Shown here: piece by piece, positions 7,969 through 29,439 of the stretch
Layout of the letters: every line of letters begins with the position of its first letter
Numbering within the stretch: the stretch's first letter is position 1
Source: Escherichia phage vB_EcoM_Goslar
Direction: 5' to 3' (one strand)
DNA length: 64,000 nucleotides
Sequence record: NC_048170.1
Notes under the pieces: model-generated
The model's database searches: none
What the model saw: the letters and a program-made list of their open reading frames with translations, nothing else
What the model was told of the DNA's origin: nothing
Program-made: the position numbers and the translations under genes

Positions 7969-7983
7969 AACAAAATAGCGTGA

Positions 7984-8030
7984 GCATAACCCTCCTCCAA
8001 CCCGTAAGGGAAGGAGGAGGGAATATGCTG
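7984..8030. terminator. Bidirectional stem-loop between convergent genes (CCCTCCTCC / GGAGGAGGG arms, extended by CATAAC...ATGCTG flanks)
   Basis: Near-perfect inverted repeat read directly; lies between the + gene ending 7968 and the - gene ending 8031. Confidence 0.6.
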
Positions 8031-10823: not shown

Positions 10824-10838
10824 AAAACACTCCGTTGG

Positions 10839-10869
10839 CCTAGGGGAAGGTTTTCAGCCTTCCCCTAGG
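10839..10869 (-). terminator. Stem-loop (CCTAGGGGAAGG / CCTTCCCCTAGG) between tandem minus-strand genes; terminator or attenuator
   Basis: 12-bp perfect inverted repeat; followed on the minus strand by GTTTTAT and then the next start codon. Confidence 0.5.
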
Positions 10870-10882
10870 GTTATAAACACAA

Positions 10883-13687
10883 TTAAGCTAATTTACCGAA
10901 ACCGGCTTTCTGCAGTTTCTCGTTGATGATTTTCGCTTCAGCGAAGACGTAATCGCGGTAGGCGGTCACTAACGCATCCACACGTGAACGCAAGGCTTCT
11001 TCGAAGCTATACCACGCAGCGATTTCACGAATCTGTGCGTTGATATAATCAACGGTTGAGCGAAGCTCGGTTGCGTTTTCCTGCGGGATGGCTTTCACCT
11101 GGCGAGCAACGTCATTTAAACGACGGAACTGTGTTTCGATTTCTTTAAACTTATTGTCGGCAAGTTTGCTGAATTCGTCACCAGAACGGGTAAATAACAG
11201 ATAGCTGTTGCCATCAAGTGCGGTCGCTAACTGCTGAAGTACGTTGGTGTCCGGATACACAGGAGTACCGCTTTGCAGTACCTTCTCACCGAATTCCGCG
11301 AAGTCCTTCGGTGGTAAGTGCGCAGACGTTGTCAACTCGTTGAAACGGAAAGTCAGCGAACTATCATACAACATCCGGTACGCTTCCATACCCTGCTTCA
11401 TGGTGCCAGCCAGGTTGGCCAGACGCGGAGCAATCTCACCCTCTTTAGCGCGTTTCTGGTCTTCTAACGCCCCTTCGAGTTCTTTACACTGGTCGTTCAG
11501 ATACACGATACGATCGGGACGCAGACGACGCATCTCACGAAGAATGGTATCCAGCTTACCTTCCTGGAAATAACCTAGCGTTAAAGACGTACACGCTTGC
11601 TGAAGACGATCGAACACCGGTAAGGTTACCATCTCCTTACGGATACCATCAACAATCGCAGAAACAGCCGAAAGTTTCTGTTCTGTCGTTAATGGAACAT
11701 CAGAGACCGACTTGCTGGGCGCACCAACAACGTTACGCATTGCGTCGGTATCCTCGGTTTTATCAACCTCTTTACGAACATGCTCATCAGGAACATAAAC
11801 GTTCGCATTACGTTTCGCCTGCTTGATGGCATCGTTGGCCGCTTTTTCGGTGGCTGCTACGCTATCGGCACGTTTCTTCAAGAGTTCAATAATCCAGAGC
11901 ACCAGACGACGAATCGCAGTATAGGCCGTCGTGATGATGACACCGATAACAGCCATCTTCATGATACCGAACGATTCCATGGTCGGCTCTAATGCCTGGT
12001 CTGGCATATAGCGTTCACGCAGCTCCAGATAGATCTGCTCATCCGGTTTGCTGATCTCGCCACGATGCGAAGTCCGATAGATGGCTTCGTCAATCTCAAC
12101 AAGATCTTTGCGTGCCTGACGGTCTGTTTCGGTCAAATAAGCGCAGCCGGATACGTCGTCTTCAAAACTTTCGAACTTAAAGAAATCGACAACCATCTTG
12201 GCAAGCGCCTCTTTCTTAGCAGGATCGAGTGTCTTCGCATCTTCTTTTTGCTTATCCATTTTTTCCTTGAATTTCTCTTTGTAGTCATTCAAGGGTTTTA
12301 CCGCTCTTGCTTTCAACGCGTTATAGATAGCTTTCCACTCATCGTTACGTTCGAGGACAATGAAATGGTTTTTGAGTTCGAAAGCGCGATAGCGTGCAAC
12401 GAGCTGTTCTACCTGAATATGAGCGAGTTGGATATCCATTAACCAACGCGACATCGCCGAGATCAAACGGCTATAAGCGAACAACGTTTGGTAGGTTAAC
12501 TTCATGTATGTTTCATACAGCTCAATATCGCCGCTCTGAATATTGGCTGTTGGATTCATTTCCTTTGTTGCCTTGAAGACCTGTTCTGCTTCTCTCAGCG
12601 TCTTTTCGAACTTAACGTCATTAAACGCAGTGAATGGTTCAGCCAACTCATGCATTTTATCGTGGAGTTCGCGGATCCAAGCTTCCTTGCTGTCGCGGAT
12701 GGTGTTTTCATCATGGAGCACGGTTTGATGTTTTCGTACCCATTCTTCCACGATATCAGCAGCGGAAACAATCGGAACGCGATCTGAAATGAGCGGGACG
12801 ATCGTGTGAAGCGCCCCGACACATTCTGGCGTGTCCCAGTGTTTCTGGAGTTCATCACGGAAACGGTTAATGTTTTCTAAGGTGGTACCTAAATCAAGGA
12901 AAGTGCCGCCATTATGACTCATCTGTGCAACCAGATCGGCAAATACCTTTTGTTTTTCGATGACAAAAGGAACCATCCGCATAAGCCATTCAGCAGTTGC
13001 TTTAGCCTTTTCTTTCAGGTTCTTATCGGCGATTTCTTTAAGGTTAATCGCGCTACCGTATCCTGCAAGTTCGTTGTAGACGTCGTTAACCGTCATCTCT
13101 TTATCCAACATTTCTTTGAAACGTGGATAATCTGCACCTAACGCGTCGATGACTTCTTGGATGATGTCGTCTGTGGTAGCGATAAATTTATTTGTGCCGC
13201 CGTAATGGTTCCAGATTTTCTGTAGCGTCTTCTTAAAGAATTCGAAGACGAATGTCCAGATACGCTTAATGAGTTCCCAGACTTTCTTCGCACCATCGAC
13301 AAACAGTTTAGAGACTTTGGCAACGAATCCTTCCTGCACCAACTCAACGCCGTTACGTGATGGAATTTCGGTGAAGAAAGCATCTGGCAGTTGTTTCGGG
13401 AACGCGTCACCAAGACGCATACGCAATTCGGGTACATCGGCACGAGAAATACCGCGCGTCGTTAACTGCTCGTGAAGACGAACGTTTTCTTCACCAGAGG
13501 CTACGAATTCGTTAACGTCAAATGACACCAGTTCTTGATCTTCGGTGGTGACGACGCTTGAACCATCACTGGTTTGGATGTCTTCGTCAGGGAATGCCAT
13601 GAGCATACCGTGACGCATTTCAACCACTCCGTAATCGGTTGCTAAACCGAATTCGTTGTGATCGGGGGTAATAACTGGGATACTCAT
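10883..13687 (-). CDS. Large hypothetical protein (934 aa), helical/charged, one hydrophobic segment
   Basis: ORF track. Confidence 0.85.
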   Translation of the reverse strand: MSIPVITPDHNEFGLATDYGVVEMRHGMLMAFPDEDIQTSDGSSVVTTEDQELVSFDVNEFVASGEENVRLHEQLTTRGISRADVPELRMRLGDAFPKQLPDAFFTEIPSRNGVELVQEGFVAKVSKLFVDGAKKVWELIKRIWTFVFEFFKKTLQKIWNHYGGTNKFIATTDDIIQEVIDALGADYPRFKEMLDKEMTVNDVYNELAGYGSAINLKEIADKNLKEKAKATAEWLMRMVPFVIEKQKVFADLVAQMSHNGGTFLDLGTTLENINRFRDELQKHWDTPECVGALHTIVPLISDRVPIVSAADIVEEWVRKHQTVLHDENTIRDSKEAWIRELHDKMHELAEPFTAFNDVKFEKTLREAEQVFKATKEMNPTANIQSGDIELYETYMKLTYQTLFAYSRLISAMSRWLMDIQLAHIQVEQLVARYRAFELKNHFIVLERNDEWKAIYNALKARAVKPLNDYKEKFKEKMDKQKEDAKTLDPAKKEALAKMVVDFFKFESFEDDVSGCAYLTETDRQARKDLVEIDEAIYRTSHRGEISKPDEQIYLELRERYMPDQALEPTMESFGIMKMAVIGVIITTAYTAIRRLVLWIIELLKKRADSVAATEKAANDAIKQAKRNANVYVPDEHVRKEVDKTEDTDAMRNVVGAPSKSVSDVPLTTEQKLSAVSAIVDGIRKEMVTLPVFDRLQQACTSLTLGYFQEGKLDTILREMRRLRPDRIVYLNDQCKELEGALEDQKRAKEGEIAPRLANLAGTMKQGMEAYRMLYDSSLTFRFNELTTSAHLPPKDFAEFGEKVLQSGTPVYPDTNVLQQLATALDGNSYLLFTRSGDEFSKLADNKFKEIETQFRRLNDVARQVKAIPQENATELRSTVDYINAQIREIAAWYSFEEALRSRVDALVTAYRDYVFAEAKIINEKLQKAGFGKLA

Positions 13688-14124
13688 GCATTCTCTCCTT
13701 GCAGTGCGTTAGCGAAAGCTGTTGCGAGCTGCGCAACCAGTTTCGGATCAACGCCTTCGATAACGTCAGGCAGCCCTGCGGTTTCTTGGTCACGAACAGC
13801 GGAGGCTAATAACAGCATGGTTTCAGGCGCGGTTGGCTCATGCACCATGCGGTAACGCAGGCACCAGAAGTAGCGGGCAACGTCTAACGCATCAGCCAGC
13901 CCAATAACCAGCACCTTGTTCAGTTTATCCAACCCGTCACGGATTTTAGGGAGATGTTCACGAACGAAGATGCTATCCGCAGTCAGATCTTCTTTTTCAG
14001 CGAATACCGGCATGCTGTAACCGGCGATGTAACCTGCGGCAATACTTAACGCGCGGGTCTGTTGTTCGGCTGGGAAGTCACGTACCAGGTCTTTCAGCTG
14101 AACGGCGAAATCAGAAATATTCAT
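13684..14124 (-). CDS. Hypothetical protein (146 aa)
   Basis: ORF track; 4-nt overlap with downstream gene. Confidence 0.75.
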   Translation of the reverse strand: MNISDFAVQLKDLVRDFPAEQQTRALSIAAGYIAGYSMPVFAEKEDLTADSIFVREHLPKIRDGLDKLNKVLVIGLADALDVARYFWCLRYRMVHEPTAPETMLLLASAVRDQETAGLPDVIEGVDPKLVAQLATAFANALQGENA

Positions 14125-14157
14125 GTTAAATTCCTTTATAGTAAAAAATAGAAGAGA

Positions 14158-15468
14158 TTAGGCGATAATGGAATCAAGAGTCGCTGCTGTTTTGAACAGA
14201 TCGCTGTTCATTGTAGAAGAAAGGACTTGCTGAATTTCTTCCTGTTTAACGGCTTTACGAACTCCAGGACGAAGGATAAGCGTAACCATCTGCATAAATG
14301 TACGGTTGTTGTTCATCGCGCTTAACGTTTCATCAATTGTTTTGATGGTATCTAACGTAGTGGAGCGTATGTCGCTAGGGAGGTCACGATCTTTCAGACG
14401 TATAATCAAATCTTGTTTGATTTTTCTGAATCGTTCCATATCGTTGTCATAGATGCTGTATGTCGGATCTAACCAAACTGCAAGCGCCATAGCAGCAACA
14501 AATATTGCCATACCAAGAATATTAACCGAGGTGAAGCTGATCGCTATCAAAATTGTCACGGCTGCATCTTTAATGAAGGAGAGCCAGAACATCGTTTTGG
14601 ACTTCATGGAGTTGGTGCCATAAAGCCGAAACATTTTAGCAAGCCCGCTAACGAGATACTCCCCACTGCCGTGACGTGTAGCGAACTGATCGGCCATGAA
14701 TTCGGAAGCAACGTCGGTATATCGTCCAGCGTTGTTTACATTTCTTAACTGCATCGCTTTGTTAGACACGTAAACCGTGTACCAGACACTACCATCGTCT
14801 GAATCACTGATTTTATTTACGTCGACGTTAGTATCTAGCGTTTTGTTTAACGCTTTCGCCAGTTCGATACGTTTTACCTTATCGGTTGTTCCCAACAGTT
14901 CGCGCTGCACGGTCATGATTGAGGCTTCGACACGAACCGTTTCCGACAATGTTTCAAGGAAAGTAAACGCATGACCGATTTCATGCAGCATTATGGCTGC
15001 TTTTTCTTCCGGAAGAAAGGGTTCTGTCGCTGTTAGCAATTCATACGTGATGGCAGAACGAATCTTCAACTCCTCAAAAATACCGTAAACGCGACCTTTT
15101 TCTAAATCGACGTAACCGACAGGTGCATCTTTAATCTTCTTAAGAAGTGCGACACCATCGACACCACGCATCCATAATCGATGATAGTCTGCCAATATCG
15201 CGTTGTTTGTTGAAATATCCGGCGGGTACACGTAGGCATTCATCTGGCCCATTTTCACGTCAACCGAAAATTCGATGTTCAACCCCGTATAGCGTTTAAC
15301 CATCTCGGTTAAACGACCGTCCTTGAAAACGTTTAAAACCTCTTTTTTATCCAGTCCCTGTTTGCTTCTGAAGAACTCGGTCATTTCCTTGAACAAGGAA
15401 CCATCCTGAAACTTGATGGCCTCCATCGTTAATTCGTCATGACCATACACGCGTTGTAGTAATGACAT
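14158..15468 (-). CDS. Putative membrane-anchored zinc metallopeptidase (M48/M56-like HExxH ... ExxADxxA)
   Basis: HEIGH motif, downstream EFMADQFA motif, hydrophobic helices about residues 285-330. Confidence 0.55.
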   Translation of the reverse strand: MSLLQRVYGHDELTMEAIKFQDGSLFKEMTEFFRSKQGLDKKEVLNVFKDGRLTEMVKRYTGLNIEFSVDVKMGQMNAYVYPPDISTNNAILADYHRLWMRGVDGVALLKKIKDAPVGYVDLEKGRVYGIFEELKIRSAITYELLTATEPFLPEEKAAIMLHEIGHAFTFLETLSETVRVEASIMTVQRELLGTTDKVKRIELAKALNKTLDTNVDVNKISDSDDGSVWYTVYVSNKAMQLRNVNNAGRYTDVASEFMADQFATRHGSGEYLVSGLAKMFRLYGTNSMKSKTMFWLSFIKDAAVTILIAISFTSVNILGMAIFVAAMALAVWLDPTYSIYDNDMERFRKIKQDLIIRLKDRDLPSDIRSTTLDTIKTIDETLSAMNNNRTFMQMVTLILRPGVRKAVKQEEIQQVLSSTMNSDLFKTAATLDSIIA

Positions 15469-15689
15469 TGTACACTCTCTAAATTTACGTAAATTTAAGG
15501 GCTAATGGATCGGCTGGCCGCACCAATCACAATGTGTCCGCTGCTATGCAACGGCATTCATAGAAATACCTTTTGACGGTAACATCACCCATCACACCCC
15601 AAGCAATAAGAGTGGTCGGTTAAAAACAACAGAACGTGAGGATGATATAGAAATTCACCTTTTAACACCTATTACGAGTTTATCAAGCC

Positions 15690-17189
15690 ATGAGCGAACA
15701 AGAACGAAAACCTAAGAAGAAACTGCTCGGTATTCAATGTCGACACATCAGCTATAACGAAGCGAACGATGGCAGCAAGAACGACCTCATGATCGCAAAA
15801 GAGATCATGTTCTTTGATGATAATACGCAAGCGACGAACCTTCGCTTCTTTGAGAATTACAAACGTCCGTTTTGGGTGACAGTAGAGAGTAAACGTAAGA
15901 ACAAATATAAAAAGGAAAGCGAGAAGCTGTCACATGTGCGACGCTACGATGTCCGTCAAAGTGAACTGGTTGAAAAGATCAGTTCGGTGCTTTATAAAAG
16001 ACGTGCCGATGATAACACCCGTTTACAGCAGCTTGCACGGAGTCCATACCTCTATGGAACGGACGTTAGCGCCAGCTGTTATTTAAAAACCCAATACAAT
16101 ACAAAATGGCCGGAATACGTCGATAAATTACCCGCTTCTATCGCCTGTTTCGATATCGAAACTGACGTTGTCCATGGACACGGTAAGATCGTCTGTATGT
16201 CTATTACAATGGGATACAATGCGATACTTTGCTATACCAAGGACTTCGTTGGTCATATTCCGAATGCGATTGAGAAAACTCATGAGAAGATTCGATATTA
16301 TCTGGCCGAACGTCTGAATACCAAAGAAGATCCTCACGCGTTCGAAAAATATCATTACGATGTGCGAATCGTAGAAAGTCCGGCACAAGCGGTCATCCAA
16401 TGCATGCAAAAGGTTCACGAATGGCAGCCGGATTATCTCCTCGGCTGGAATATCGCGTTCGATATTCCGCGCATGCTCCAGGCACTGAACGAGGAAGGGT
16501 ATCGTCCCGAGGATGTTTTCTCCGATCCTCGTGTACCACCTAAATATCGTATTGCTCGCTGGGTACCACCGAAGACCGACAAGGTATCTGCTTCAGGTCG
16601 TAAAACCAACCTTACCCTCGAGCAGACCTGGCCGATGTTTTATACGATGGCTACGTATCAGGTTATGGATGCGATGTGTGGCTATAAGTTCGTTCGTTTA
16701 GGAAGACCGGATGAAGGACGCTATTCACTCGATGCGGTATTAGAGCGAAATAAATGCCATACGAAATTAAAAGCGATTCCTGGTACAGAAGGGTTCACGG
16801 AGCTTGCGTGGCACGAAGAAATGCAAACGAACCATCAAATCGACTACGGCGTATATAACCTTTGGGATAACCAAGGCATCGAGGCGTTGGACCAGAAAAC
16901 AAAAGACTATTCGATGACCATCCCTATCCGTTTAGCGGCGTCGGATTTGAAAGATTTCAGTTCTAACCCTAAACGTATCTGCGATAAACTTTTCTTCGTT
17001 TATCTTAACCGTGGGGAAGTCATGGGATGCACCGCCGACGACATGACCCAGGAAGAAGATAAGTGGGTTATCTCACGAACCGGACATATCGTCACATTAC
17101 CATGCGATCTCATGGCGGACAACGGCATTCATCTCTTCTGGGATATGCCTAATTTAAGGAGCTATATTCGATTATTTGTTGCGGATTAA
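15690..17189 (+). CDS. Family B DNA polymerase (E. coli Pol II-like) 3'-5' exonuclease domain; ORF ends before the polymerase palm motifs
   Basis: Exo I CFDIETD, Exo II GWNIAFDIPRML, Exo III YNLWD in canonical order and spacing; no motif A/B/C in this ORF. Confidence 0.7.
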   Translation: MSEQERKPKKKLLGIQCRHISYNEANDGSKNDLMIAKEIMFFDDNTQATNLRFFENYKRPFWVTVESKRKNKYKKESEKLSHVRRYDVRQSELVEKISSVLYKRRADDNTRLQQLARSPYLYGTDVSASCYLKTQYNTKWPEYVDKLPASIACFDIETDVVHGHGKIVCMSITMGYNAILCYTKDFVGHIPNAIEKTHEKIRYYLAERLNTKEDPHAFEKYHYDVRIVESPAQAVIQCMQKVHEWQPDYLLGWNIAFDIPRMLQALNEEGYRPEDVFSDPRVPPKYRIARWVPPKTDKVSASGRKTNLTLEQTWPMFYTMATYQVMDAMCGYKFVRLGRPDEGRYSLDAVLERNKCHTKLKAIPGTEGFTELAWHEEMQTNHQIDYGVYNLWDNQGIEALDQKTKDYSMTIPIRLAASDLKDFSSNPKRICDKLFFVYLNRGEVMGCTADDMTQEEDKWVISRTGHIVTLPCDLMADNGIHLFWDMPNLRSYIRLFVAD

Positions 17190-17257
17190 CCTTCGTTCTG
17201 TAAAAGTTTACTTCATGTAAGAATCGTGTGCGGCATAAGAGAGGCCGATACATCTAG

Positions 17258-18469
17258 ATGTTACATGAGGTTTACGAGATGGAAAAATCTATACATACTC
17301 AAACTGGAACTATTGACTATCGCGATTCAGCATATTTGCCGTACACAAATCATCGTTATCGTATATTTGAAGATGGCGAGTTGTACGACTATAAAGAAGA
17401 TAGGGTCGTCCCTTACGAAGTTGTAGACGGTGTCCCTTATGTTGAAATCGATTGGTATAGAGGCATTGGAAAATACGATCTCGGTATGATCATTCTCACC
17501 GTTCTTGAACGGGTTGCTTTACCAGATCACCTTTACGATGAAATTGAATCGTTGTTTGTGGACGGAGATCCGACTAACTTTTCGTATAGCAATCACATCT
17601 ACCGTTTCCGTAATGGGCCGTTAGAAGTTGAGGGATTCGAAGGTTATTGTTATATTCCGTTTGCATCTCGTTACGCGATAAATAAAGAAGGACATTGTAT
17701 TAGTCTTCTTTCGTTGGATCCTATCACGTGGACGAAAACGGTTCAGCAAGGCACACGTCTTGGCGGATACGCTTATCGTAAAGTGGTTCCCGACAGCGGG
17801 TTTACACCGCAGTTATATCGTCACCGAGCTATCATGTTAGCGTTTACGAGATATGATGCTAACGTTGTGAACTTAACTGTAAATCATAAAAACGGAATTA
17901 AAGGTGACGATTGGTTTGACAACCTCGAATGGGCGACATATGCCGAGAACAATCAACATGCTCGTATGGCAGGGTTGTGTATAGGTACGTCAAAACCTGT
18001 TTTGGTTTATGATTACCGTGCACGAATCGAACGTCGTTTTAATAGTATCGCAGAAGCGGAACGTGCTTATCCGTACGTGCCGAAAGGACGTTTCAAATGG
18101 TGGGTAAACAATCCTCCGAAACGTATCCCAGAATGCGATTTATACATCAAGTTTGCCACGGACAATACGCCTTGGCCGGAGTGGAAACTTGGAGAAGATC
18201 GTCGTGTCGAGGACACCGACGGTCGCGGTATTCTCGCTATTAATAAAGAGACGAACGAACGACATGTGTTTCCATCAGTAACTGCTGCCGCAAATGCGTT
18301 AGGAATCTCCTGGATTACCGTAAGACGTCATTGCGATCGTCGTGCAGTACCTACGAAACAGCCTTGGTGTTTTCGTTACGCTGATGATATCGCTGCCATG
18401 CCTGATTTCGATGTTAATAAATTAGTTCCTAAGAAGAAGCGTGTATTTAATGTCCCATTAGAACGATAA
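17258..18469 (+). CDS. HNH homing endonuclease (403 aa)
   Basis: HNH motif LTVNHKNGIKGDDWFDNLEWATYAENNQHA; AGAGAGG RBS; location between polymerase gene segments. Confidence 0.8.
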   Translation: MLHEVYEMEKSIHTQTGTIDYRDSAYLPYTNHRYRIFEDGELYDYKEDRVVPYEVVDGVPYVEIDWYRGIGKYDLGMIILTVLERVALPDHLYDEIESLFVDGDPTNFSYSNHIYRFRNGPLEVEGFEGYCYIPFASRYAINKEGHCISLLSLDPITWTKTVQQGTRLGGYAYRKVVPDSGFTPQLYRHRAIMLAFTRYDANVVNLTVNHKNGIKGDDWFDNLEWATYAENNQHARMAGLCIGTSKPVLVYDYRARIERRFNSIAEAERAYPYVPKGRFKWWVNNPPKRIPECDLYIKFATDNTPWPEWKLGEDRRVEDTDGRGILAINKETNERHVFPSVTAAANALGISWITVRRHCDRRAVPTKQPWCFRYADDIAAMPDFDVNKLVPKKKRVFNVPLER

Positions 18470-18504
18470 CAGGTCCCCCTACTTGTAATGAGTGGGTGAA
18501 CTCT

Positions 18505-18905
18505 CTTTAATTGCTGGAAACCTTTAATGCCCCTCCACACCACAACGCAATCCGAAAGGGTAAACGTGATGGTTGTCGAAAGACAGAAAAAAGTTGGAGG
18601 GGATTACCTATGTTGCAATAAAAGCCACCGCTTTCTTGGATAACGAAAGATGACGGTGGTACTAAGGGTAGAAGATAGAAATAAGGTAACCGTAGCAGCG
18701 AAGACCCTACGGACTGTCGTGACCGACTCGATGAGTTGGCGTGGTTAACACGGACAGGCTACGGGTAACGTTCAACGACCATCCGGTTGCGCGGAGTAGG
18801 AGAATTAGGATGTTCTCTGAAAAGGGAGAAGTCGGTCGAGGTGTTGTAGAAACACCATTCGGTTTGCTAACGCAAACCTAAGGCAGGCTAAGATATGGTC
18901 TATTT
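18505..18905 (+). ncRNA. Candidate group I intron catalytic core (P-, Q-, R-, S-like elements)
   Basis: R-like GTTCAACGACCA (~18770) and S-like AAGATATGGTC (~18890) with a compensatory P7 pair (GACCA/UGGUC versus consensus GACUA/UAGUC); P-like AATTGCTGGAAA (~18509); Q-like AACCGTAGCAGC (~18687); several hairpins; no ORF on either strand. Confidence 0.5.
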
Positions 18906-18948
18906 TTCGTTGTGTTCATGTATAGAAATTACTGAACCATCGTAAGAG

Positions 18949-19203
18949 CTCGATATATCTTCAAGCTATCCAAATGGGCAGATACTGCTCAATCTATCCA
19001 GAGCATGTGTTTTTCGTGAGCTCTCACGCATTGAGGGCGTCTCTGACTATCAATTCAGGAAGCTAGGTATCAACTTTATCACTGGAGGTAAAACGAACGC
19101 TGTAGACTTCTGTAGAATCGTTTATAAAGCGCCATCGATGTTTGAACTTTTAGAACATTTCGATGCGACGCGTCCAAAAGAGGAAGCGCGGACCATCGAA
19201 TGA
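18949..19203 (+). CDS. Candidate downstream exon: start-less open frame with polB motif-A-like sequence (LDISSSYPNGQ), stop at 19201-19203
   Basis: 86-codon open frame with no start codon until its last 21 codons; DISSSYP resembles DxxSLYPS; joining after 17186 to 18949 would be in frame and obey U at the 5' splice site and G at the intron 3' end. Confidence 0.3.
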   Translation, partial: LDISSSYPNGQILLNLSRACVFRELSRIEGVSDYQFRKLGINFITGGKTNAVDFCRIVYKAPSMFELLEHFDATRPKEEARTIE

Positions 19204-19245
19204 ATCAAGTATGTTGATCCTCGTTTAACAAAAAGAAAACGCATG

Positions 19246-19284
19246 CGAAGCCCCTCCCCCTGGCGGAAGCCGGAGGGAGGGGTG
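19246..19284 (-). terminator. Rho-independent terminator of the gene ending at 19289
   Basis: CCCCTCCC...GGGAGGGG stem with inner CTGGC/GCCGG pairing, followed on the minus strand by a T-rich tract (GTTTTCTTTTTGTT). Confidence 0.65.
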
Positions 19285-19288
19285 AGGT

Positions 19289-19774
19289 TTATGCGCGTTC
19301 GTTGCCAACCGTTACTTTGTAGTCAGCGTCGGTTAAGAAAATAGACAGGAATCCATGTTCTTTGCAAATCTTACTAAGGATGTCAGCAATGATTTCGTTG
19401 ATCATCGGCTTGTTTGCAAGGGCATAGATGTACCCGGGTGTAAAAGAAAGTGCGTGATTGATCATAGGCTCATGAGAAGCCAAGATAAGGATCACGTGAT
19501 GCTTCCCATCGTCGGTAACGACCGCTTGCGTAGACACGAAGAAATCAGTGAAGCAGCAGCGATCACAGGCTTTAGGTATATACAAGTCACCCAGAGCTTC
19601 GTCACGTGCTTTTACGTGTGTTTCAGGGGTAATGCTGCTAAGTTGATCTTCAGCGAGATCCAAGACATCCTCAATCGTTTTAAGAATAGCGTTGCGGAAA
19701 TCCTCACGGTAGAATGGGATGATATCACGATCGTTCATGTAATCGCCGGATTCGATAGTAAAGTTGATGTTCAT
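19289..19774 (-). CDS. Hypothetical small protein (161 aa)
   Basis: ORF track; terminator immediately downstream; preferred over the overlapping + strand ORF 19355..19777. Confidence 0.75.
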   Translation of the reverse strand: MNINFTIESGDYMNDRDIIPFYREDFRNAILKTIEDVLDLAEDQLSSITPETHVKARDEALGDLYIPKACDRCCFTDFFVSTQAVVTDDGKHHVILILASHEPMINHALSFTPGYIYALANKPMINEIIADILSKICKEHGFLSIFLTDADYKVTVGNERA

Positions 19775-19884
19775 TGAATGCTCCTAGTGGTTATGTCGAT
19801 TGATTGATGTGTTAATTTATGTTTGATGGGGTATACTTGAAACTACAAATAAGGCTCTTGGCGTTGCTGTTATGGTTCAGTTCT

Positions 19885-20334
19885 TTATCCCTTGTTGGAT
19901 TCGTCAATATACTTGGTGTCGTAAGACAAATGCTGAATTAATTTTCTAGGTCTGATGAAAATACGACATGTGATAAACACATCGGGATCGTATTGTTCCA
20001 CGCAACGTCCGAAGGCTCGTTTTGCGGACTGACGCATCAAGGCTAATTCCTGATCGTTCATCTCATCATCAAATTCGATGAGTATTGTTATTTTATCGGG
20101 AAATAAATAGATAGAGTAATCGCTACCGATATCACCGTCGTCAAAACGATAATCGTTGTGGTAATGGCGGAGCTTACCTTCGTGCTCCGCCTGGTACCAC
20201 CCGACGATACTATCAAGGCCCATACCCAGGCGTCCGAATGCCTGATTAATAATATCATCAACGACGGATGCAGGTGTGGGGCCATTGAATAATCTATCCA
20301 GACATTTTTTCATCGATTTGGTTTTCACGTTCAT
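19885..20334 (-). CDS. Hypothetical small protein (~149 aa; probable start at the second Met, MNVKTK)
   Basis: ORF track 19885..20361; AGGAAAAG RBS before the internal ATG. Confidence 0.7.
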   Translation of the reverse strand: MNVKTKSMKKCLDRLFNGPTPASVVDDIINQAFGRLGMGLDSIVGWYQAEHEGKLRHYHNDYRFDDGDIGSDYSIYLFPDKITILIEFDDEMNDQELALMRQSAKRAFGRCVEQYDPDVFITCRIFIRPRKLIQHLSYDTKYIDESNKG

Positions 20335-20363
20335 TGTTTCTTTTCCTGTTATAGTCAACATAT

Positions 20364-20398
20364 AGCCCTTCCCCGGCCTTGACGGCTAGGGAAGGGGC
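20364..20398 (-). terminator. Stem-loop (AGCCCTTCCCC / GGGAAGGGGCT) between tandem genes
   Basis: Inverted repeat read directly. Confidence 0.5.
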
Positions 20399-20423
20399 TA
20401 GGTACGTTATTTATGCTTCATTA

Positions 20424-20909
20424 TCAACCAGAGATGTTGCACGTTTCTTCTTCGTCGAGTGCGTACTCCATTGTGTAGAATTCATAACCATCGGAAAACT
20501 TGAGTGTTACTGTAATAGGGAAATCGCACGGCATAGCTGATTTCTTAAATGCGTTATTAGCAACATCAGCCAACCGACGTATAGCATCAGTCCCGCTGAC
20601 ACTGAATGGTAGTTGTATGTTGATAAGGATGCGGTGCTTGTAAACATAGAAAACAACGGTGCTGTCAAGATAAACGCTATGGAACGGTATTGTTGGGATG
20701 CGTTCCACGATGGTAAAATACGTCCCATCAATATCACTATTTCCCACTGACCACTTATCGGATTTGCGTAGATTTTCTTTGAGGAATTCGACGCTTCGAG
20801 TGACAGCCTCAGTAGTAGGTGCGACGTATGCGTCTTTATGCGTGTCGAAAAGTTCGTTGACGTTAGATTTGAATGAATACGCTGTTGCCATTTTGATAAC
20901 ACCGGTCAT
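20424..20909 (-). CDS. Hypothetical small protein (161 aa), paralogous to 20952..21449
   Basis: ORF track; shared C-terminal pattern (MP..ITVTLKFSDGYEFY versus MPVTLTISGHDGSGLFEFHY). Confidence 0.75.
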   Translation of the reverse strand: MTGVIKMATAYSFKSNVNELFDTHKDAYVAPTTEAVTRSVEFLKENLRKSDKWSVGNSDIDGTYFTIVERIPTIPFHSVYLDSTVVFYVYKHRILINIQLPFSVSGTDAIRRLADVANNAFKKSAMPCDFPITVTLKFSDGYEFYTMEYALDEEETCNISG

Positions 20910-20951
20910 GTTTAATTGATGAGTATTCCATCTAGTAAGGGAATACGTTAT

Positions 20952-21449
20952 TTAGCTATCGATCTCGCCATCTTCAGGATGGTAGTGGAATTCGAATAGC
21001 CCTGAACCATCGTGCCCGCTGATTGTTAATGTAACAGGCATATCGAATCCTCGTACGCGTTTATGAAAACACTCCGCTAACTTACGTTCAGCGTAATCTA
21101 CTATTTCATCGGTTGCTTCGACGCCACCTGTTACGCTGAGCGTGATATCGATACTAATGATGTTATCATGCAACGCAAACCGCCAACGATCGATACGATT
21201 ATTATCTTCAGCAGGCGTCTCGTTTACAAGATAGATTTTATCGTCAGCTGACAAAGCGGGACTCCAGCAACGTTCGTTTATTAATTTCGCCTGGAGTTTT
21301 AGTATCGTCTGATCAATAATATCCCAACACGTAACCAGCGTGACGTCAGGCACTGAATTGAGAAGGGCGAGCACTTTATCCTTTATTTTAAGTGCTTCCG
21401 CAGGACGCCCGCAAATACCATGCATTTCAACTTTCTTATCCATATTCAC
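20952..21449 (-). CDS. Hypothetical small protein (165 aa), paralogous to 20424..20909
   Basis: ORF track; similarity to neighbour. Confidence 0.75.
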   Translation of the reverse strand: MNMDKKVEMHGICGRPAEALKIKDKVLALLNSVPDVTLVTCWDIIDQTILKLQAKLINERCWSPALSADDKIYLVNETPAEDNNRIDRWRFALHDNIISIDITLSVTGGVEATDEIVDYAERKLAECFHKRVRGFDMPVTLTISGHDGSGLFEFHYHPEDGEIDS

Positions 21450-21495
21450 TTCTTCACTTCTTTCTTAATCTAAATGTTAGTTGGGGATGGGATGC

Positions 21496-22128
21496 TTACA
21501 TGCTTTCTAACATATCGATGATCATGGAACCCATACCGAAACTCGGTCTCTCGCCGATGTACTCAGCAAGCTGACGATGAACGTCTTTTGGATTTCCTTC
21601 TTCACCGTCGGCATCGATGTAGACCGAAAAAGAAAATGAATCGGAATCCACGCTGATAACCAGACGGCGTTCATTGCGTTCCTTGAGTGTATCGACAATA
21701 GCCGCTTTCAGTACCGCGATCGCATTCATCGCGTGCAAGATGTCTCCATCGGGTTTCGGTAGATCGATCTTTTCTTTCAGGTCGATATTGATGTTGGTTA
21801 CAATTGGATTGAGGTCGACCTTGACATAATCGTTAGGGAAAACGCGAATAATTGCACGATCGATATCTGAACCGTAAAAGTCAACACGTGGCTTTAACAC
21901 TTCTTTGTTTGGATCCATGTTTTCATCCATCCCGGCCTGCAAGAAACGTTCTACGTTATCCAGTTCACGATAAACTGACGCTTCGATTTCTTTCAGATAG
22001 TTGGCTGCGGTTTCATGTTCTTTACGCAGCTCGTCTTTAAGGAGCTGTACGGTGACTTCACTAGAACGAATGCTGTTCGCGAATTGGGTAATTGACATAT
22101 CGAATTCCTTAAATTCTCTTGAGTTCAA
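21496..22128 (-). CDS. Hypothetical protein (210 aa)
   Basis: ORF track; AAGGAA RBS. Confidence 0.8.
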   Translation of the reverse strand: MNSREFKEFDMSITQFANSIRSSEVTVQLLKDELRKEHETAANYLKEIEASVYRELDNVERFLQAGMDENMDPNKEVLKPRVDFYGSDIDRAIIRVFPNDYVKVDLNPIVTNINIDLKEKIDLPKPDGDILHAMNAIAVLKAAIVDTLKERNERRLVISVDSDSFSFSVYIDADGEEGNPKDVHRQLAEYIGERPSFGMGSMIIDMLESM

Positions 22129-22146
22129 TTAATGATGAAAAGCTGT

Positions 22147-22172
22147 AAAAAAAAGGTGGGGCGAACCCCACC
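22147..22172 (-). terminator. Rho-independent terminator (GGTGGGGCGAACCCCACC hairpin with an 8-nt T run on the minus strand)
   Basis: Hairpin plus A8 on the + strand, directly downstream of the gene ending at 22197. Confidence 0.65.
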
Positions 22173-22196
22173 AAAACGTCAGACACACGCAGAAAA

Positions 22197-22622
22197 TCAA
22201 TTCAGTGATGCATATAACGCATAACGACTGTAGATCTCAACCGCCGGTCCGTTATGCGTTAACAGACCATCCCGGTTGTAATACTGGAAAAATGAATAAC
22301 GTTTGTCGAAGTGATAAACAAAAGCAATGTCTTTGCCGTCAAAACCTGTGATGCGTGGTCTGTTTTTATCTAACAATGCTTTGACTTTTAACAGTGTTGC
22401 CGCACGTGCTTTAACGTTAGGGATTAATCCATCACAGTCGATATAAACGGTGTAACCTGTTTCAGATGTTGCGACGGTTGTATTACGATTGACGCGGAAG
22501 ATTTTTGTTTCGTATGTACTATCTTCAAGAATTGGGTTTTGTTTTTCGTATTTTCGTTTACGTAGAAATTCTACAACGGTGATATAGTTAGCGGTAATAT
22601 GCCCGGTTATAGCTTGTAACAT
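22197..22622 (-). CDS. Hypothetical protein (141 aa)
   Basis: ORF track; preceded by the conserved upstream element. Confidence 0.75.
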   Translation of the reverse strand: MLQAITGHITANYITVVEFLRKRKYEKQNPILEDSTYETKIFRVNRNTTVATSETGYTVYIDCDGLIPNVKARAATLLKVKALLDKNRPRITGFDGKDIAFVYHFDKRYSFFQYYNRDGLLTHNGPAVEIYSRYALYASLN

Positions 22623-22735
22623 CTCGACATCCTTTTATATTGGATTGATTGCAATTGTCTTAAATAGATGATAAGATATTTTGCTCTTATCACTAAGGTA
22701 ATGTAGTCGTGAAATAAACTGCGTTAACAAGAAAT
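22623..22735 (-). promoter_or_regulatory. Conserved upstream element, copy A (second copy at 49717..49812): conserved flanks around a covarying hairpin, ending in AAGGA RBS and ATG
   Basis: Near-identical 25 nt (CATCCTTTTATATTGGATTGrTTGC on the + strand) and a second conserved block (CACyTAAGgTAATrTAGyCGTGAAA) flank hairpins of different sequence (GATAAGA/TCTTATC here, GGTGAAGC/GCTTCACC in copy B). Confidence 0.45.
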
Positions 22736-22797
22736 AAAAACAGCATAGAACCCTCCTCCCCCATCCTTCAAGAGGACGGTGGGAAGAGGGAGAGAGA

Positions 22798-23199
22798 TTA
22801 AATGTCGTGGACGGCATTGCCGTTTAACCAGCAATACAGTTTAACGCGACAGGAATACCGCTTCGTTGCAGCAACCATTTCATCGCGTAAACGCTGGTAG
22901 ATTTCATCCTGGTGTTCACGTTCAATGGGGTAATCAGCCCAACATTCGATCATGACGTCACCATTAGTCAGAATCGTCGTACGCATCCTGTCCTGGACAC
23001 GACGATCTTTCCCAGCATTAGGGAAATACATCCCTTCAGTACGAATAAGGTCGCCGCAGGGCATGACTAACCATTCGTTCGTTTTGCCGGTATTCTTATA
23101 ATCCATTACAGCTTGCATTGCGGTGTCAACGCTAAAAGAAACATAATTCCAAACGGATGTCCAACGATAGATTGCGGGTTGTTCGAGTGTTTCGTTCAT
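22798..23199 (-). CDS. Hypothetical protein (133 aa)
   Basis: ORF track. Confidence 0.75.
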   Translation of the reverse strand: MNETLEQPAIYRWTSVWNYVSFSVDTAMQAVMDYKNTGKTNEWLVMPCGDLIRTEGMYFPNAGKDRRVQDRMRTTILTNGDVMIECWADYPIEREHQDEIYQRLRDEMVAATKRYSCRVKLYCWLNGNAVHDI

Positions 23200-23254
23200 G
23201 GAGTGCTTTTCCTATTTTTATTTTCTGCACAGGATAAATTCAACGGCATAAAGC

Positions 23255-23285
23255 CCTTCCCTGCCCTTATATGGGGCGGGAAGAG
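23255..23285 (-). terminator. Imperfect stem-loop (CTTCCCTGCCC / GGGCGGGAAG)
   Basis: Inverted repeat in a 210-bp intergenic region. Confidence 0.45.
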
Positions 23286-23412
23286 TTTATGACCGCAATG
23301 AGAATCTCTCACGACAAGCTCACGACGATTATCGCATCACCCCGCGAGTGAGGGAGATCAGGATCACCTCCTACGTCGTAACGACAGCAATCCCGTTACG
23401 TCGCATTAGACG

Positions 23413-24051
23413 TTATGCAAAGCGACGCATGTAACCTGCCAGGTAGTTACGTGTATCGAAGTAGGCAATTTCAGGAATTGCGATATTAAGGTCGATAGCA
23501 CGGATTTCAACTTGGCGACGGCTTTCATCATAGATCGCATCCATCAGACGCAGTACTGTCAGGAAAGCCATGCGGGTATGGTAGTCCAGCGGCATGTTAT
23601 CGATACCGCGATACAGATAACGGTTTGCGTTAAATGCCCCTTCGCTGTTATCTTTCCAGATCTTCAGAATATCAGCAAAGGCGGTGCGGAAAACCTCAGG
23701 ATTATCCACATCCAGTAACGCACGGAAAGCAGACATTAAAGACCGCTGATGACGGATCAACGACTGCGGTGTTTGCGGCATGGTTGGACCCATTTCTTCC
23801 GCATATTTCTGGAACGGGGCAACCAGGGTTGCGGCACGAGAAGCCACGATAGAAACAGCAGGCGATTCTTTCACCGCCGGTTTCGCAGGCTTTTCTTCAA
23901 CAACGGTTTCCTTCTTCTCAACAGCGACCGTTTCCGGCTGTGCTACAACGTTGTTGGTCGGAGCAGCAGCCGCACCATTTTCCACGGCGGTCTCTACTGC
24001 TGTAATCTTTTCGTCCATTTGTGCGGAACGTTGGTCTTTATTCTTGCTCAT
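23413..24051 (-). CDS. Hypothetical protein (212 aa) with Ala/Pro/Glu/Val-rich N-terminal region
   Basis: ORF track. Confidence 0.8.
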   Translation of the reverse strand: MSKNKDQRSAQMDEKITAVETAVENGAAAAPTNNVVAQPETVAVEKKETVVEEKPAKPAVKESPAVSIVASRAATLVAPFQKYAEEMGPTMPQTPQSLIRHQRSLMSAFRALLDVDNPEVFRTAFADILKIWKDNSEGAFNANRYLYRGIDNMPLDYHTRMAFLTVLRLMDAIYDESRRQVEIRAIDLNIAIPEIAYFDTRNYLAGYMRRFA

Positions 24052-24076
24052 GTTTATTTCCTTTCATTTAACAAGG

Positions 24077-25378
24077 TTAACTAATATAAAGTTCAGGATC
24101 GTAAGGCGCTAACGATACACTGGCGTTATGCATTGCTTTCATCATAGTGTTCATGAAAACGTTGTTTACACCGGTGATCTCCGCCCCGATCGCGTCTGGG
24201 GTTGGAGCCATCGCGTTACCGCAACAGGTAGCACAGTATTCCAACGGACCCGCTTTACAGCGCTGAGGATCGCGTAACTTGATGGTTTGTCCTTCCAAGG
24301 AAGCAAGTAATTCAGCATCAATAAGTTTAAGCGCCGCACCGTCGATCATGTAACGGCCGACAAGCAGCTTATCTTTGATATGATCGCGGTTTACCGTGAA
24401 CAGAATATGTTCTTGGGTACCACAGTCGTCCATCGTGATTTTAAGGTTCTGTGTCGCACGTTGTGATTCTTTCGCCGTCTGTCCCGCTAAAGCGGTCAAC
24501 GCACCACGTGAGAACGAACCCGCACGTGCACTGTTGTTGTACTCCGCCCAATGGTCGACACGCATCCCTTCAGCCAGGCTGTGCGTGATAACGTTACGTT
24601 TACCAGGGTCAACGAAGTCGGCTTCAACCCCCATCATGATGTGCGTTTTCTTTCGAGTATTACCGAAACTCTTGCCAGGGTTAATATAGAACCCTTCCGA
24701 TTCGTCGCCCTTAAAGGATTCCTTATCCATTTTGGTTAGCGTGGCTTCGAGTTTAATAAGTTCTTCAGGCGTGAACTTACCTTCCTCTTGCAGACGCGCT
24801 AACTCTTTATCACGATAGGCAATAATATCGTCATCGACCGTTAACGCTTTATCGCTCATCGATGGGACAATTAAACGGTTGATGGCGGTTAATGCGCTGA
24901 TATTGTTGGTGAATTTCTTCACTTCGCTTGCGTACAGCGGGCCAATAGGACGTTCGTTAGGATCGGGTATCCCCTCTTCGGGATCGTCCGCTACGCGCGG
25001 CGCAATCAGTGATTCCAGTGTACCGCTGGTCAACCGTCCTGCCTGATATTCAATCTGAATACCGAAAGCATCATAAAGGACGTACATATTGAACAACGCT
25101 TCACCGAAGGTTGTGGTGGTCGTATTCTTAACCGACGGTAGATCACCAGGTGCGAGCTCCAATGGCTCCCAGAAACTCAACAAGGGTTTTGTTGGCTCGG
25201 TTTCCCATTGATGTTCCTCACCGTCGATGGTAACCGTAACGACGTTACCTTGACGACGTAATTTGGGCTGATACTTCTCAGCACCACCTTCCGTAAAAGC
25301 AAATGCGTCGTTAATCCATTCAAGATAACGGTAGTGCCCTTCACGCATCGCGTAAAGGAAATATTCACGAGGTGTCAT
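24077..25378 (-). CDS. Multisubunit RNA polymerase beta-prime C-terminal fragment (bridge helix / trigger loop region)
   Basis: NSARAGSFSRGALTALAGQTAKESQRATQNLKITMDDCGT matches the E. coli beta-prime segment [42 protein letters not shown] recalled from memory; ORF is only 433 aa, so a split subunit. Confidence 0.65.
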   Translation of the reverse strand: MTPREYFLYAMREGHYRYLEWINDAFAFTEGGAEKYQPKLRRQGNVVTVTIDGEEHQWETEPTKPLLSFWEPLELAPGDLPSVKNTTTTTFGEALFNMYVLYDAFGIQIEYQAGRLTSGTLESLIAPRVADDPEEGIPDPNERPIGPLYASEVKKFTNNISALTAINRLIVPSMSDKALTVDDDIIAYRDKELARLQEEGKFTPEELIKLEATLTKMDKESFKGDESEGFYINPGKSFGNTRKKTHIMMGVEADFVDPGKRNVITHSLAEGMRVDHWAEYNNSARAGSFSRGALTALAGQTAKESQRATQNLKITMDDCGTQEHILFTVNRDHIKDKLLVGRYMIDGAALKLIDAELLASLEGQTIKLRDPQRCKAGPLEYCATCCGNAMAPTPDAIGAEITGVNNVFMNTMMKAMHNASVSLAPYDPELYIS

Positions 25379-25391
25379 GTAACAACTCCTT

Positions 25392-26270: not shown

Positions 26271-26360
26271 TCCGATGCGGTAAATGTCTACTAGCTCTCA
26301 TAATCTATTGAAGAAACTACCAGCTTACGCCAACTTAGATTAATCAGGAGTAACCATCCC

Positions 26361-28495: not shown

Positions 28496-28587
28496 TCGAT
28501 CCGCGATACGGGTTACACGACGGGCAACTTGTTCGTAATGATGAAAAAATCTGGGAATTGCTGTTAGCGCGTAAAGGCGATGGTGGC

Positions 28588-28917: not shown

Positions 28918-28918
28918 A

Positions 28919-29428: not shown

Positions 29429-29439
29429 TGCAACGGTAA

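What the first reader, a model, noticed from the sequence alone, without database searches (positions are those of the whole stretch)
15690..19203. The DNA polymerase is fragmented: catalytic motifs B and C are absent from this locus
The exonuclease ORF carries Exo I-III but no palm motifs. Even if the start-less frame at 18949..19203 is exon 2, it stops about 75 aa after the motif-A-like sequence, roughly where motif B (Kx3NSxYG) would be expected. Downstream genes are on the opposite strand and sit behind a terminator. Either the polymerase is encoded in separate pieces, as the RNA polymerase beta-prime appears to be, or a second intervening element or a disrupted gene is present.
Basis: inference. 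Interest (0 to 1): 0.7.

Follow-up and report, generated by a model that had tools for sequence, protein, structure and literature searches.

The report
Two-gene phage DNA polymerase with intron
This is the N-terminal subunit gene of the two-subunit DNA polymerase that all phiKZ-like (nucleus-forming) jumbo phages have, here also interrupted by a mobile self-splicing intron; the missing catalytic motifs sit in a separate gene about 91 kb away in the same genome, so the arrangement is real but ordinary for this family.

Summary
ORF 15690..17189 carries Exo I-III, frame 18949..19203 carries motif A, and no motif B or C occurs anywhere in the 64-kb window.

The locus is one gene for a 583-aa protein, the N subunit (DNAP-N) of the split family-B polymerase of chimalliviruses. 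A 1762-nt group I intron (17187..18948) with an HNH/NUMOD1 endonuclease ORF interrupts it two codons before the motif-A aspartate. An intron-less allele in another strain encodes exactly the predicted spliced protein.

The protein's end, about 80 aa after motif A, is the natural C-terminus in relatives: complete homologs among the 120 best-scoring clusters are 555-640 aa and none is fused to the other subunit.

Motifs B (KLDNNSLSG), C (SDTDS) and KxY lie in a separate 717-aa gene (Pfam PF20286). I found it in the same phage genome by contig walking, beside chimallin, on the opposite strand, about 91 kb away.

The split is already published for phiKZ-like phages. The modestly new parts are the intron at motif A, its several allelic forms within one phage species, and the same-site interruption in about 15% of related lineages.

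Splicing, complex formation and endonuclease activity are inferred, not shown.

The parts
15690..17186 (+). Exon 1 of the DNAP-N gene (codons 1-499): N-terminal domain, 3'-5' exonuclease (Exo I-III) and the strand leading into motif A; it ends ...RLFVAD.
   Evidence: 37-45% identical to phiKZ-type SL2 gp270. A family profile hits RB69 gp43 collinearly (E 1.6e-5). The AlphaFold model of residues 1-450 is confident, and Foldseek's top hits are RB69/T4 gp43, Pol epsilon and Pol II (E 4e-13).
17187..18948 (+). Group I intron, 1762 nt. It starts with TAA, so unspliced RNA terminates translation at codon 500. The last exon base is U and the last intron base is G.
   Evidence: The boundaries are fixed by the intron-less allele L105:3001-4752 and by the alignment to SL2 gp270. 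Rfam RF00028 gives 44.7 bits, E 3e-9, below the gathering score of 50. Allelic introns at the same site score 70.3-70.4 bits.
17258..18469 (+). Intron-encoded homing endonuclease ORF. The longest frame is 403 aa, with an alternative ATG at 17279. It has HNH plus NUMOD1, an I-HmuI-like architecture.
   Evidence: Pfam NUMOD1 29.6 bits (above cutoff); HNH_3 23.3 bits, E 5e-5 (just below the 24.8 cutoff). Homologous ORFs of 368-378 aa occupy the allelic introns.
18470..18948 (+). Ribozyme core (P3-P9 region) downstream of the ORF.
   Evidence: Rfam alignment. RNAalifold on 7 strain variants predicts 144 pairs, 12 of them with compensatory double changes.
17178..17234 (+). Candidate P1: exon bases 17178-17186 pair with intron bases 17226-17234, placing the U17186-G17226 wobble at the splice site.
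   Evidence: Duplex search, -9.0 kcal/mol, the best of the scanned positions. This is inferred and has no covariation support.
18949..19203 (+). Exon 2 (codons 500-583 plus stop): LDISSSYPN motif A (catalytic-position D501) and the conserved C-terminal tail.
   Evidence: 42% identical to SL2 gp270 residues 561-630, E 8e-18. D499, D501, Y506 and P507 are invariant in the 37-sequence alignment A3; D499 and D501 are also invariant in 98 homologs. The median distance from motif A to the C-terminus is 79 aa in 69 homologs.
19250..19283 (.). G+C-rich hairpin between the convergent genes, terminator-like.
   Evidence: MFE -34.9 kcal/mol on the plus strand and -33.1 on the minus strand; z = -3.2 and -3.4. 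Not called by the consensus terminator scan.

Best explanation
The window comes from an uncultivated phiKZ-like (chimallin-encoding) jumbo phage of about 237 kb. Its replicative family-B DNA polymerase is made of two separately encoded polypeptides, as in the whole family.

The locus 15690..19203 encodes the N subunit (DNAP-N, 583 aa). This comprises the N-terminal domain, a DEDDy proofreading exonuclease, and the first palm strand with motif A. The gene is interrupted between codons 499 and 500, two codons before the motif-A aspartate D501, by a 1762-nt group I intron. The intron carries an HNH/NUMOD1 homing-endonuclease gene. Self-splicing at U17186 / G18948 joins ...FVAD to LDISSSYPN... and restores the reading frame.

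The C subunit (DNAP-C, 717 aa, Pfam PF20286) is a separate, uninterrupted gene. It lies next to the SH3DP and chimallin genes, on the opposite strand, about 91 kb away on the circular map. It supplies the fingers with motif B (K152-x3-N156-S-x-S159-G160), motif C (S404-D-T-D-S408), the KxY motif and the thumb.

The two proteins assemble into one enzyme. Its active site is composite: the motif-A Asp comes from DNAP-N and the motif-C Asp from DNAP-C.

Shown here: gene structure, exact intron boundaries, homology, motif content, and the presence of both genes in one genome. Inferred: splicing in vivo, endonuclease activity and homing, 1:1 assembly (shown only for PhiKZ by others), and the composite active site (from conservation only).
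For: Exon junction:
- The junction matches SL2 gp270 (...HIAD|LDIVSTYPN).
- An intron-less allele (P0121, 583 aa, 215 member sequences) lies on ena:ERZ27286049:k141_31814. It equals the predicted spliced product except for 3 substitutions far from the junction.
- The two alleles differ at 78 of 1752 nt but at only 3 aa, which indicates purifying selection.
- About 30 of those nucleotide differences, all silent, lie within -37..+41 of the junction. This is a co-conversion or cleavage-immunity signature.

Intron:
- Rfam group I, E 3e-9.
- Allelic introns at the same site score above the gathering score.
- Covariation in the core.
- HNH/NUMOD1 ORF.

Natural C-terminus:
- Complete homologs are 555-640 aa, and 68-131 aa (median 79) follow motif A.
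- None of the 120 best clusters is fused to a C subunit.

PolB identity:
- Profile against PDB hits RB69 gp43 at Exo II, Exo III and motif A in order.
- Fold search hits family-B polymerases.

Partner gene:
- SL2 has gp309 (PF20286, E = 0), 36.6 kb from gp270.
- Walking along IMGVR_UViG_3300011560_000001 (237,533 bp) reached the C-terminal 436 aa of DNAP-C next to chimallin. This contig carries the same intron type and is 96.6% identical to the window over the gene.
- The full-length protein P0390 lies at 9,990-12,143 of JGI contig Ga0495776_031993 (182,865 bp). The IMG/VR record with the same sample number and length carries DNAP-N at 158,461 onward.

Motifs:
- K152, N156, S159, G160, D405, T406, D407, S408, K484 and Y486 are invariant in 153 DNAP-C sequences.
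- D405 and D407 are the only invariant Asp residues in DNAP-C.
- D499 and D501 are invariant in 98 DNAP-N sequences.
- The DNAP-C profile aligns its motif-B region to Pol zeta and Pol delta fingers, and its KxY region to RB69 705-755.

Literature:
- Exonuclease and polymerase on two chains in phiKZ-like phages (PMC3201878).
- 'Split subunit DNA polymerase' (PMC5105663).
- Cryo-EM of a stable 1:1 DNAP-N:DNAP-C complex of PhiKZ (PMC13648687).
Against: - The window's own intron copy scores below Rfam's gathering threshold (44.7 vs 50 bits), and HNH_3 is just below its Pfam cutoff.
- P1 is only a thermodynamic candidate, and P10 is weak.
- The C-terminal 120 aa of DNAP-N, including motif A, are poorly modelled by AlphaFold alone (pLDDT about 40-60). 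The RB69 match at motif A is only 1.9 bits on its own.
[quoted passage not shown] This disagrees with my composite-site reading.
- DNAP-C was found on contigs of the same phage species (96-99% identical), not on the window's own record, which I could not read beyond about 10 kb on each side.
- About 100 kb of the genome was not inspected, so a second polymerase gene cannot be formally excluded.
Confidence: 0.93

Rival explanations
1. The gene is disrupted or decaying: a pseudogene fragment of a once contiguous polB, with the phage relying on another polymerase.
For: The reading frame stops at 17189, and exon 2 has no start codon. Motifs B and C are absent from the window.
Against: The exon-1 protein is identical in 91 collection blocks. 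The alleles differ at 78 nt but only 3 aa. An intron-less 583-aa allele exists. All catalytic exonuclease and motif-A residues are invariant. The same length and end occur across the family.
Confidence: 0.02
2. A second intervening element (another intron, an intein, or trans-splicing) links this gene to the motif B/C part, so that a single polypeptide is made.
For: Split polB genes joined by inteins exist in other jumbo phages, for example MIJ3 (PMC6892783). This phage clearly hosts mobile elements.
Against: The protein ends at a conserved stop followed by a hairpin and a convergent gene. DNAP-C is about 91 kb away on the other strand, with its own start and conserved N-terminus. No intein family was detected in the pieces, and only PF20286 is on record for P0390. 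PhiKZ purifies as a two-chain 1:1 complex.
Confidence: 0.03
3. The ORF is a stand-alone DEDDy exonuclease unrelated to replication, and a full-length polB lies elsewhere.
For: Pfam sees only a weak exonuclease-domain match (16.1 bits). Part of the genome was not inspected.
Against: An invariant motif A sits at the C-terminus. The only polymerase-domain gene found lacks an exonuclease domain and any invariant motif-A Asp. The fold and profile match whole PolB N-terminal halves. Published data for the family agree.
Confidence: 0.02

Closest known systems
PhiKZ DNAP-N / DNAP-C split family-B DNA polymerase (chimalliviruses; Kazlauskas and Venclovas 2011; Basu et al. 2026 preprint)
   Same: Same two-gene architecture, same break point about 80 aa after motif A, same Pfam family for the C subunit (PF20286), and the same neighbourhood (SH3DP - DNAP-C - x - chimallin). 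DNAP-N is 37-45% identical to phiKZ-type SL2 gp270. The C-terminal part of this phage's DNAP-C is about 36% identical to SL2 gp309 in translated comparison, and P0390 is 32% identical to the gp309-identical P0001.
   Different: This lineage is deeply diverged from every phage in GenBank: the best DNAP-N identity is 38.7%. The two genes are about 91 kb apart instead of 36.6 kb. The N-subunit gene carries a group I intron that phiKZ-type genes lack.
Group I introns with I-HmuI-type HNH nicking endonucleases in DNA polymerase genes of Bacillus phages SPO1, SP82 and Bastille (own knowledge; cited in PMC11620839 refs 37-38)
   Same: A self-splicing intron with an HNH plus NUMOD-type ORF, inserted in a conserved catalytic region of a phage DNA polymerase gene. 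Similar intron cores carry divergent ORFs.
   Different: The host gene here is family B and already split into two subunits, whereas those are family A polymerases. No sequence relationship was tested.
PhiPA3 gp210 intron-encoded HNH endonuclease in the virion RNA polymerase beta gene (Birkholz et al. 2024, PMC11620839)
   Same: A chimallivirus group I intron with an HNH endonuclease, inserted next to catalytic aspartates of an essential polymerase. Intron-plus and intron-minus relatives coexist.
   Different: The target gene is different (DNAP-N rather than vRNAP beta). Interference competition is not shown here.
Archaeal and phage polB genes split by inteins or into two genes (Nanoarchaeum and Methanothermobacter from own knowledge; phage MIJ3, PMC6892783)
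   Same: A family-B polymerase delivered as two gene products.
   Different: No intein signatures were found here. The subunits stay separate and associate non-covalently, as shown for PhiKZ only.

Membership tests
Chimallivirus split PolB, N subunit (DNAP-N) | Sequence homology over the full length to phiKZ-type DNAP-N | tested here: met
   tblastn found 289 phage records, 287 of them covering at least 80% of the query. BLASTP to SL2 gp270 gave E 2e-72, 2e-32 and 8e-18 for three collinear pieces.
Chimallivirus split PolB, N subunit (DNAP-N) | DEDDy exonuclease residues (Exo I D-x-E, Exo II N-x3-D, Exo III Y-x3-D) plus motif A D-x2-S-x-Y-P near the C-terminus | tested here: met
   D155, E157, D393, D499 and D501 are invariant, and D258 is 99% conserved, in 98 homologs. 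N254, Y389, Y506 and P507 are invariant in the 37-sequence alignment A3. The order matches RB69 gp43.
Chimallivirus split PolB, N subunit (DNAP-N) | The protein ends shortly after motif A and is never fused to the fingers/thumb part | tested here: met
   68-131 aa (median 79) follow motif A in 69 homologs. No fused form occurs among the 120 best clusters.
Chimallivirus split PolB, N subunit (DNAP-N) | A partner DNAP-C gene (PF20286, motifs B and C) in the same genome | tested here: met
   L230:1-1308 on IMGVR_UViG_3300011560_000001. P0390 lies on the JGI 182,865-bp contig; the IMG/VR record of the same sample and length carries DNAP-N. These are contigs of the same species, not the window's own record.
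Chimallivirus split PolB, N subunit (DNAP-N) | Stable 1:1 complex with polymerase and proofreading activity | not testable with these tools
   Known only for PhiKZ (PMC13648687).
Group I intron (Rfam RF00028) | Covariance-model score at or above the gathering score | tested here: inconclusive
   The window copy scores 44.7 bits against 50, E 3e-9, and gave no hit at gathering level. Allelic introns at the identical site in L011 and L017 score 70.3 and 70.4 bits.
Group I intron (Rfam RF00028) | U as the last exon base, G as the last intron base, and precise removal that restores the ORF | tested here: met
   GCGGAT|TAAC...AAGAG|CTCGAT. The intron-less allele is collinear to the base.
Group I intron (Rfam RF00028) | Conserved, covarying core helices | tested here: met
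   12 pairs with compensatory changes among 7 variants. The sample is small and closely related.
Group I intron (Rfam RF00028) | GTP-dependent self-splicing | not testable with these tools
   Needs in vitro transcription and splicing, or RNA-seq.
HNH homing endonuclease, I-HmuI-like | An HNH catalytic motif plus a NUMOD-type DNA-binding module, encoded inside an intron | tested here: inconclusive
   NUMOD1 scores 29.6 bits, above its cutoff. HNH_3 scores 23.3 against 24.8, E 5e-5. The motif HKNGIKGDDWFDNLEWATYAENNQH is present. Activity was not tested.
Intein-split polB | Intein splicing blocks at the break point | tested here: not met
   No intein or Hint family was found in the exon products. 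Only PF20286 is on record for P0390.

The most novel reading that the evidence does not exclude
The motif-A codons of DNAP-N are a family-wide hot spot for mobile group I introns. Within this single abundant phage species at least three intron/endonuclease variants and an intron-less allele co-circulate. The endonucleases would act as weapons in competition between co-infecting strains by cutting the intron-less polymerase gene, as PhiPA3 gp210 does for the RNA polymerase. The silent recoding around the insertion site would be the immunity and co-conversion footprint. A further untested corollary is that the polymerase active site is assembled from two polypeptides: motif A from DNAP-N and motif C from DNAP-C.
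Probability: 0.4. Interest if true: 0.45.

Novelty: new member of a known kind. Interest (0 to 1): 0.27.

Why it matters
For annotation, the 499-aa ORF and the start-less 84-codon frame should be joined into one 583-aa DNAP-N. The absent motifs should not be read as gene decay, because gene callers in public assemblies currently report a truncated protein.

For biology, the locus adds a widespread, uncultivated chimallivirus lineage to the split-polymerase family. It also offers a natural population with intron-less and several intron-bearing alleles at a catalytic site, which is usable material for studying intron homing and strain competition in nucleus-forming phages.

The conservation pattern also predicts a composite active site. 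That prediction can be checked directly against the new PhiKZ structure.

Tried and rejected
- Near-identity DNA searches of 15000..20000 against phages, plasmids and E. coli genomes found nothing.
- Looking for this phage's DNAP-C among the top 120 homologs of SL2 gp309 failed, and two candidates (P0088, P0076) belonged to other phages.
- An IMG/VR scan with a phiKZ-biased alignment missed it, because this phage has DTDSTVF and MKNEYMF instead of the scanned peptides.
- An exact 32-mer from the window had no IMG/VR match.
- A search of 50%-identity representatives showed the family is too large (647 clusters below 1e-30) to pick the right one.
- The 10-kb flanks of the window, and of a 67%-identical relative, contained no DNAP-C.
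- Contig walking finally succeeded.
- P10 pairing and a clean IGS were looked for, and only a weak candidate was found.
- The PhiKZ polymerase structure is not in the PDB copy.
Full report
**What is in the sequence.**
The plus-strand ORF 15690..17189 (499 aa) is followed by a 403-aa ORF (17258..18469). After that comes an open, start-less frame at 18949..19203, and then a convergent minus-strand gene at 19289..19774.

Pfam gives the first ORF only a weak family-B exonuclease match (16.1 bits). It gives the second ORF NUMOD1 (29.6 bits) and HNH_3 (23.3 bits, E 5e-5).

A six-frame regex scan of the whole window finds motif A only at 18952..18975 (DISSSYPN). It finds no motif B, and no motif C apart from a chance VEDTDG inside the HNH ORF.

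**The locus is one interrupted gene.**
tblastn against 50,697 phage genomes finds 289 phiKZ-like phages, with a best identity of 38.7%. There is no DNA-level relative.

The annotated homolog in Pseudomonas phage SL2, gp270 ('DNA polymerase', 638 aa), aligns to the 499-aa ORF up to ...HIAD. It continues without a gap into the start-less frame: LDIVSTYPN in SL2 against LDISSSYPN here, E 8e-18.

This places the break between T17186 and T17187 and between G18948 and C18949. The intervening sequence is 1762 nt, its first codon is TAA, and the joined product is 583 aa.

Rfam finds a group I intron core at 18405..18923 (44.7 bits, E 3e-9, below the gathering score of 50).

**Confirmation from natural alleles.**
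A search of about 5.8 billion proteins with the predicted spliced protein returned P0121. It is exactly 583 aa, 99% identical, and has 215 member sequences. Its gene on ena:ERZ27286049:k141_31814 is uninterrupted.

At the DNA level the two alleles differ at 78 of 1752 positions but at only 3 amino acids, none of them near the junction. About 30 of the nucleotide differences, all silent, are packed into -37..+41 around the insertion site. This is the pattern expected from co-conversion of exon flanks during homing, or from recoding of an endonuclease target.

Other strains of the same phage carry different elements at the identical site:
- a 1705-nt intron whose 3' core is 86-93% identical to the window's but whose ORF region has no DNA similarity;
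- a 1536-1537-nt intron that scores 70.3-70.4 bits in Rfam, above the gathering score.

All end the 5' exon in GCGGAT and the intron in G.

Seven variants of the window-type core support a common fold with 12 compensatory pairs.

A candidate P1 pairs 17178-17186 with 17226-17234 and places a U-G wobble at the splice site. It is only a thermodynamic suggestion.

**The end of the protein is natural.**
Among the 120 best homolog clusters, complete proteins are 555-640 aa. In the 69 with a strictly matching motif A, 68-131 residues (median 79) follow the catalytic-position Asp. None is fused to a polymerase C-terminal half.

Eighteen of the 120 clusters stop at ...VAD or ...VADLD. They are therefore interrupted at the same place in other lineages.

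A stable G+C-rich hairpin lies between the stop codon and the convergent gene.

**It is the N-terminal half of a family-B polymerase.**
A profile of 28 homologs hits RB69 gp43 (E 1.6e-5) in three collinear pieces covering Exo II, Exo III and motif A. RB69 D411 aligns with D501 here.

An AlphaFold model of P0121 is confident for residues 1-450 and poor for 461-583, as expected for a segment that probably packs against a partner. Foldseek returns RB69 and T4 gp43, Pol epsilon and E. coli Pol II (E down to 4e-13).

**Where motifs B and C are.**
In SL2 a second gene, gp309 (731 aa), matches Pfam PF20286 'Divergent Family B DNA polymerase' over its full length. It lies 36.6 kb from gp270 and contains KINNNSYSGG and ISDTDS.

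The window and 10 kb on either side contain no such gene.

The phage itself is common: contigs of 236-241 kb occur in many ENA and Logan assemblies, in two NCBI isolate assemblies and in IMG/VR.

I walked along IMGVR_UViG_3300011560_000001 (237,533 bp). This contig has the same intron type and is 96.6% identical to the window over the gene. The walk passed the early-gene block, an SNF2-type helicase and the nvRNAP/SbcD block, the latter collinear with SL2 215-231 kb. It then reached the C-terminal 436 aa of a DNAP-C homolog carrying DTDS, followed by a chimallin-like gene and an RNAP-beta-like gene.

The full-length protein, P0390 (717 aa, PF20286, 328 member sequences), lies at 9,990-12,143 of JGI contig Ga0495776_031993 (182,865 bp). 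The IMG/VR record of the same sample number and length carries DNAP-N at 158,461 onward.

On the 237.5-kb contig the two genes are on opposite strands. They are 91 kb apart if the map is circular, and 140 kb apart in the other direction.

**Motif content and a composite active site.**
In 153 diverse DNAP-C sequences the following are invariant:
- K152, N156, S159 and G160 (motif B, K-x3-N-S-x-S-G);
- D405, T406, D407 and S408 (motif C);
- K484 and Y486 (KxY).

D405 and D407 are the only invariant aspartates in DNAP-C. In 98 DNAP-N sequences D499 and D501 are invariant, together with the exonuclease acids.

The DNAP-C profile aligns its motif-B region with the fingers of Pol zeta and Pol delta, and its KxY region with RB69 705-755.

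I therefore infer that motif A comes from DNAP-N and motif C from DNAP-C. This differs from the 2011 assignment of both aspartates to the polymerase chain of phage EL. It should be checked against the PhiKZ structure.

**What is known.**
Kazlauskas and Venclovas (2011) reported that exonuclease and polymerase reside on two chains in phiKZ-like phages (PMC3201878). Thomas et al. (2016) refer to the 'split subunit DNA polymerase' (PMC5105663). A 2026 preprint reports a 2.1 A structure of a stable 1:1 DNAP-N:DNAP-C complex of PhiKZ (PMC13648687).

Intron-encoded HNH endonucleases are known in chimalliviruses for the virion RNA polymerase gene (PMC11620839). I found no paper describing an intron in DNAP-N, though the library is limited.

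**Verdict.**
The fragmentation is real, and it is the normal, published architecture of this phage family. The local interruption is a mobile group I intron.

Novelty is limited to three points: a new, abundant lineage; the intron site at motif A; and its allelic diversity.

Not shown here: splicing, endonuclease activity, subunit assembly, and the absence of any other polymerase in the roughly 100 kb of the genome that I did not read.

Noticed in passing
window 17187..18948; L008, L011, L017, L018, L105: At one and the same site in DNAP-N, strains of this phage carry at least three different intron/HNH variants (1762, 1705 and about 1536 nt) or no intron. The first 140 nt of the core downstream of the ORF are 100% identical between the 1762-nt and 1705-nt variants, although their ORF regions share no DNA similarity, so these introns are mosaic.
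   Followed up: partly
proteins P0214, P0226, P0233 (homologs of window 15690..17186): Three DNAP-N homolog clusters end about 40 aa upstream of motif A, at ...(H)xxW(I/M)..., just before the conserved VTLP. This could be a second insertion site, or simply contig ends.
   Followed up: no
window 19289..23199, minus strand: A run of small ORFs (about 130-210 aa) lies directly downstream of the polymerase gene. Their number and sizes differ between strains of the same phage, so the block looks hypervariable.
   Followed up: no
window 54124..57058, minus strand: Several adjacent ORFs of about 155-177 aa have only faint Sigma70_r4 / HTH / Myb-like Pfam hits. They may be a paralogous family of small DNA-binding proteins.
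   Followed up: no
window 58090..60165, minus strand: A complete NAD-dependent (bacterial-type) DNA ligase of 691 aa, with adenylation, OB, zinc-finger, HhH and BRCT domains. phiKZ-type SL2 gave no match to this ORF at E 1e-5.
   Followed up: partly
window 1..28500 versus 28800..64000: The first 28.5 kb are collinear with SL2 194-213.7 kb, except that DNAP-N is inverted. The rest of the window has almost no SL2 counterpart. In another lineage (L207, L209, L214, L220) DNAP-C follows directly after the homolog of ORF 26831..28495. A large block therefore seems to have been inserted or rearranged here.
   Followed up: partly
NCBI GCA_015324645.1 (AAXDUE010000007.1, 237,099 bp) and GCA_008106945.1 (AAJPWQ010000001.1, 241,213 bp): The whole phage appears as a single contig inside two bacterial isolate assemblies, and its proteins occur in up to 499 collection blocks. 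This could identify the host of this uncultivated phage.
   Followed up: no
window 30469..33081 and L227:3-830: Two paralogous DUF7941 proteins occur in one genome. The first one also carries the NCTSP_N and TIM-barrel domains of the 'non-contractile tail sheath protein' families.
   Followed up: no
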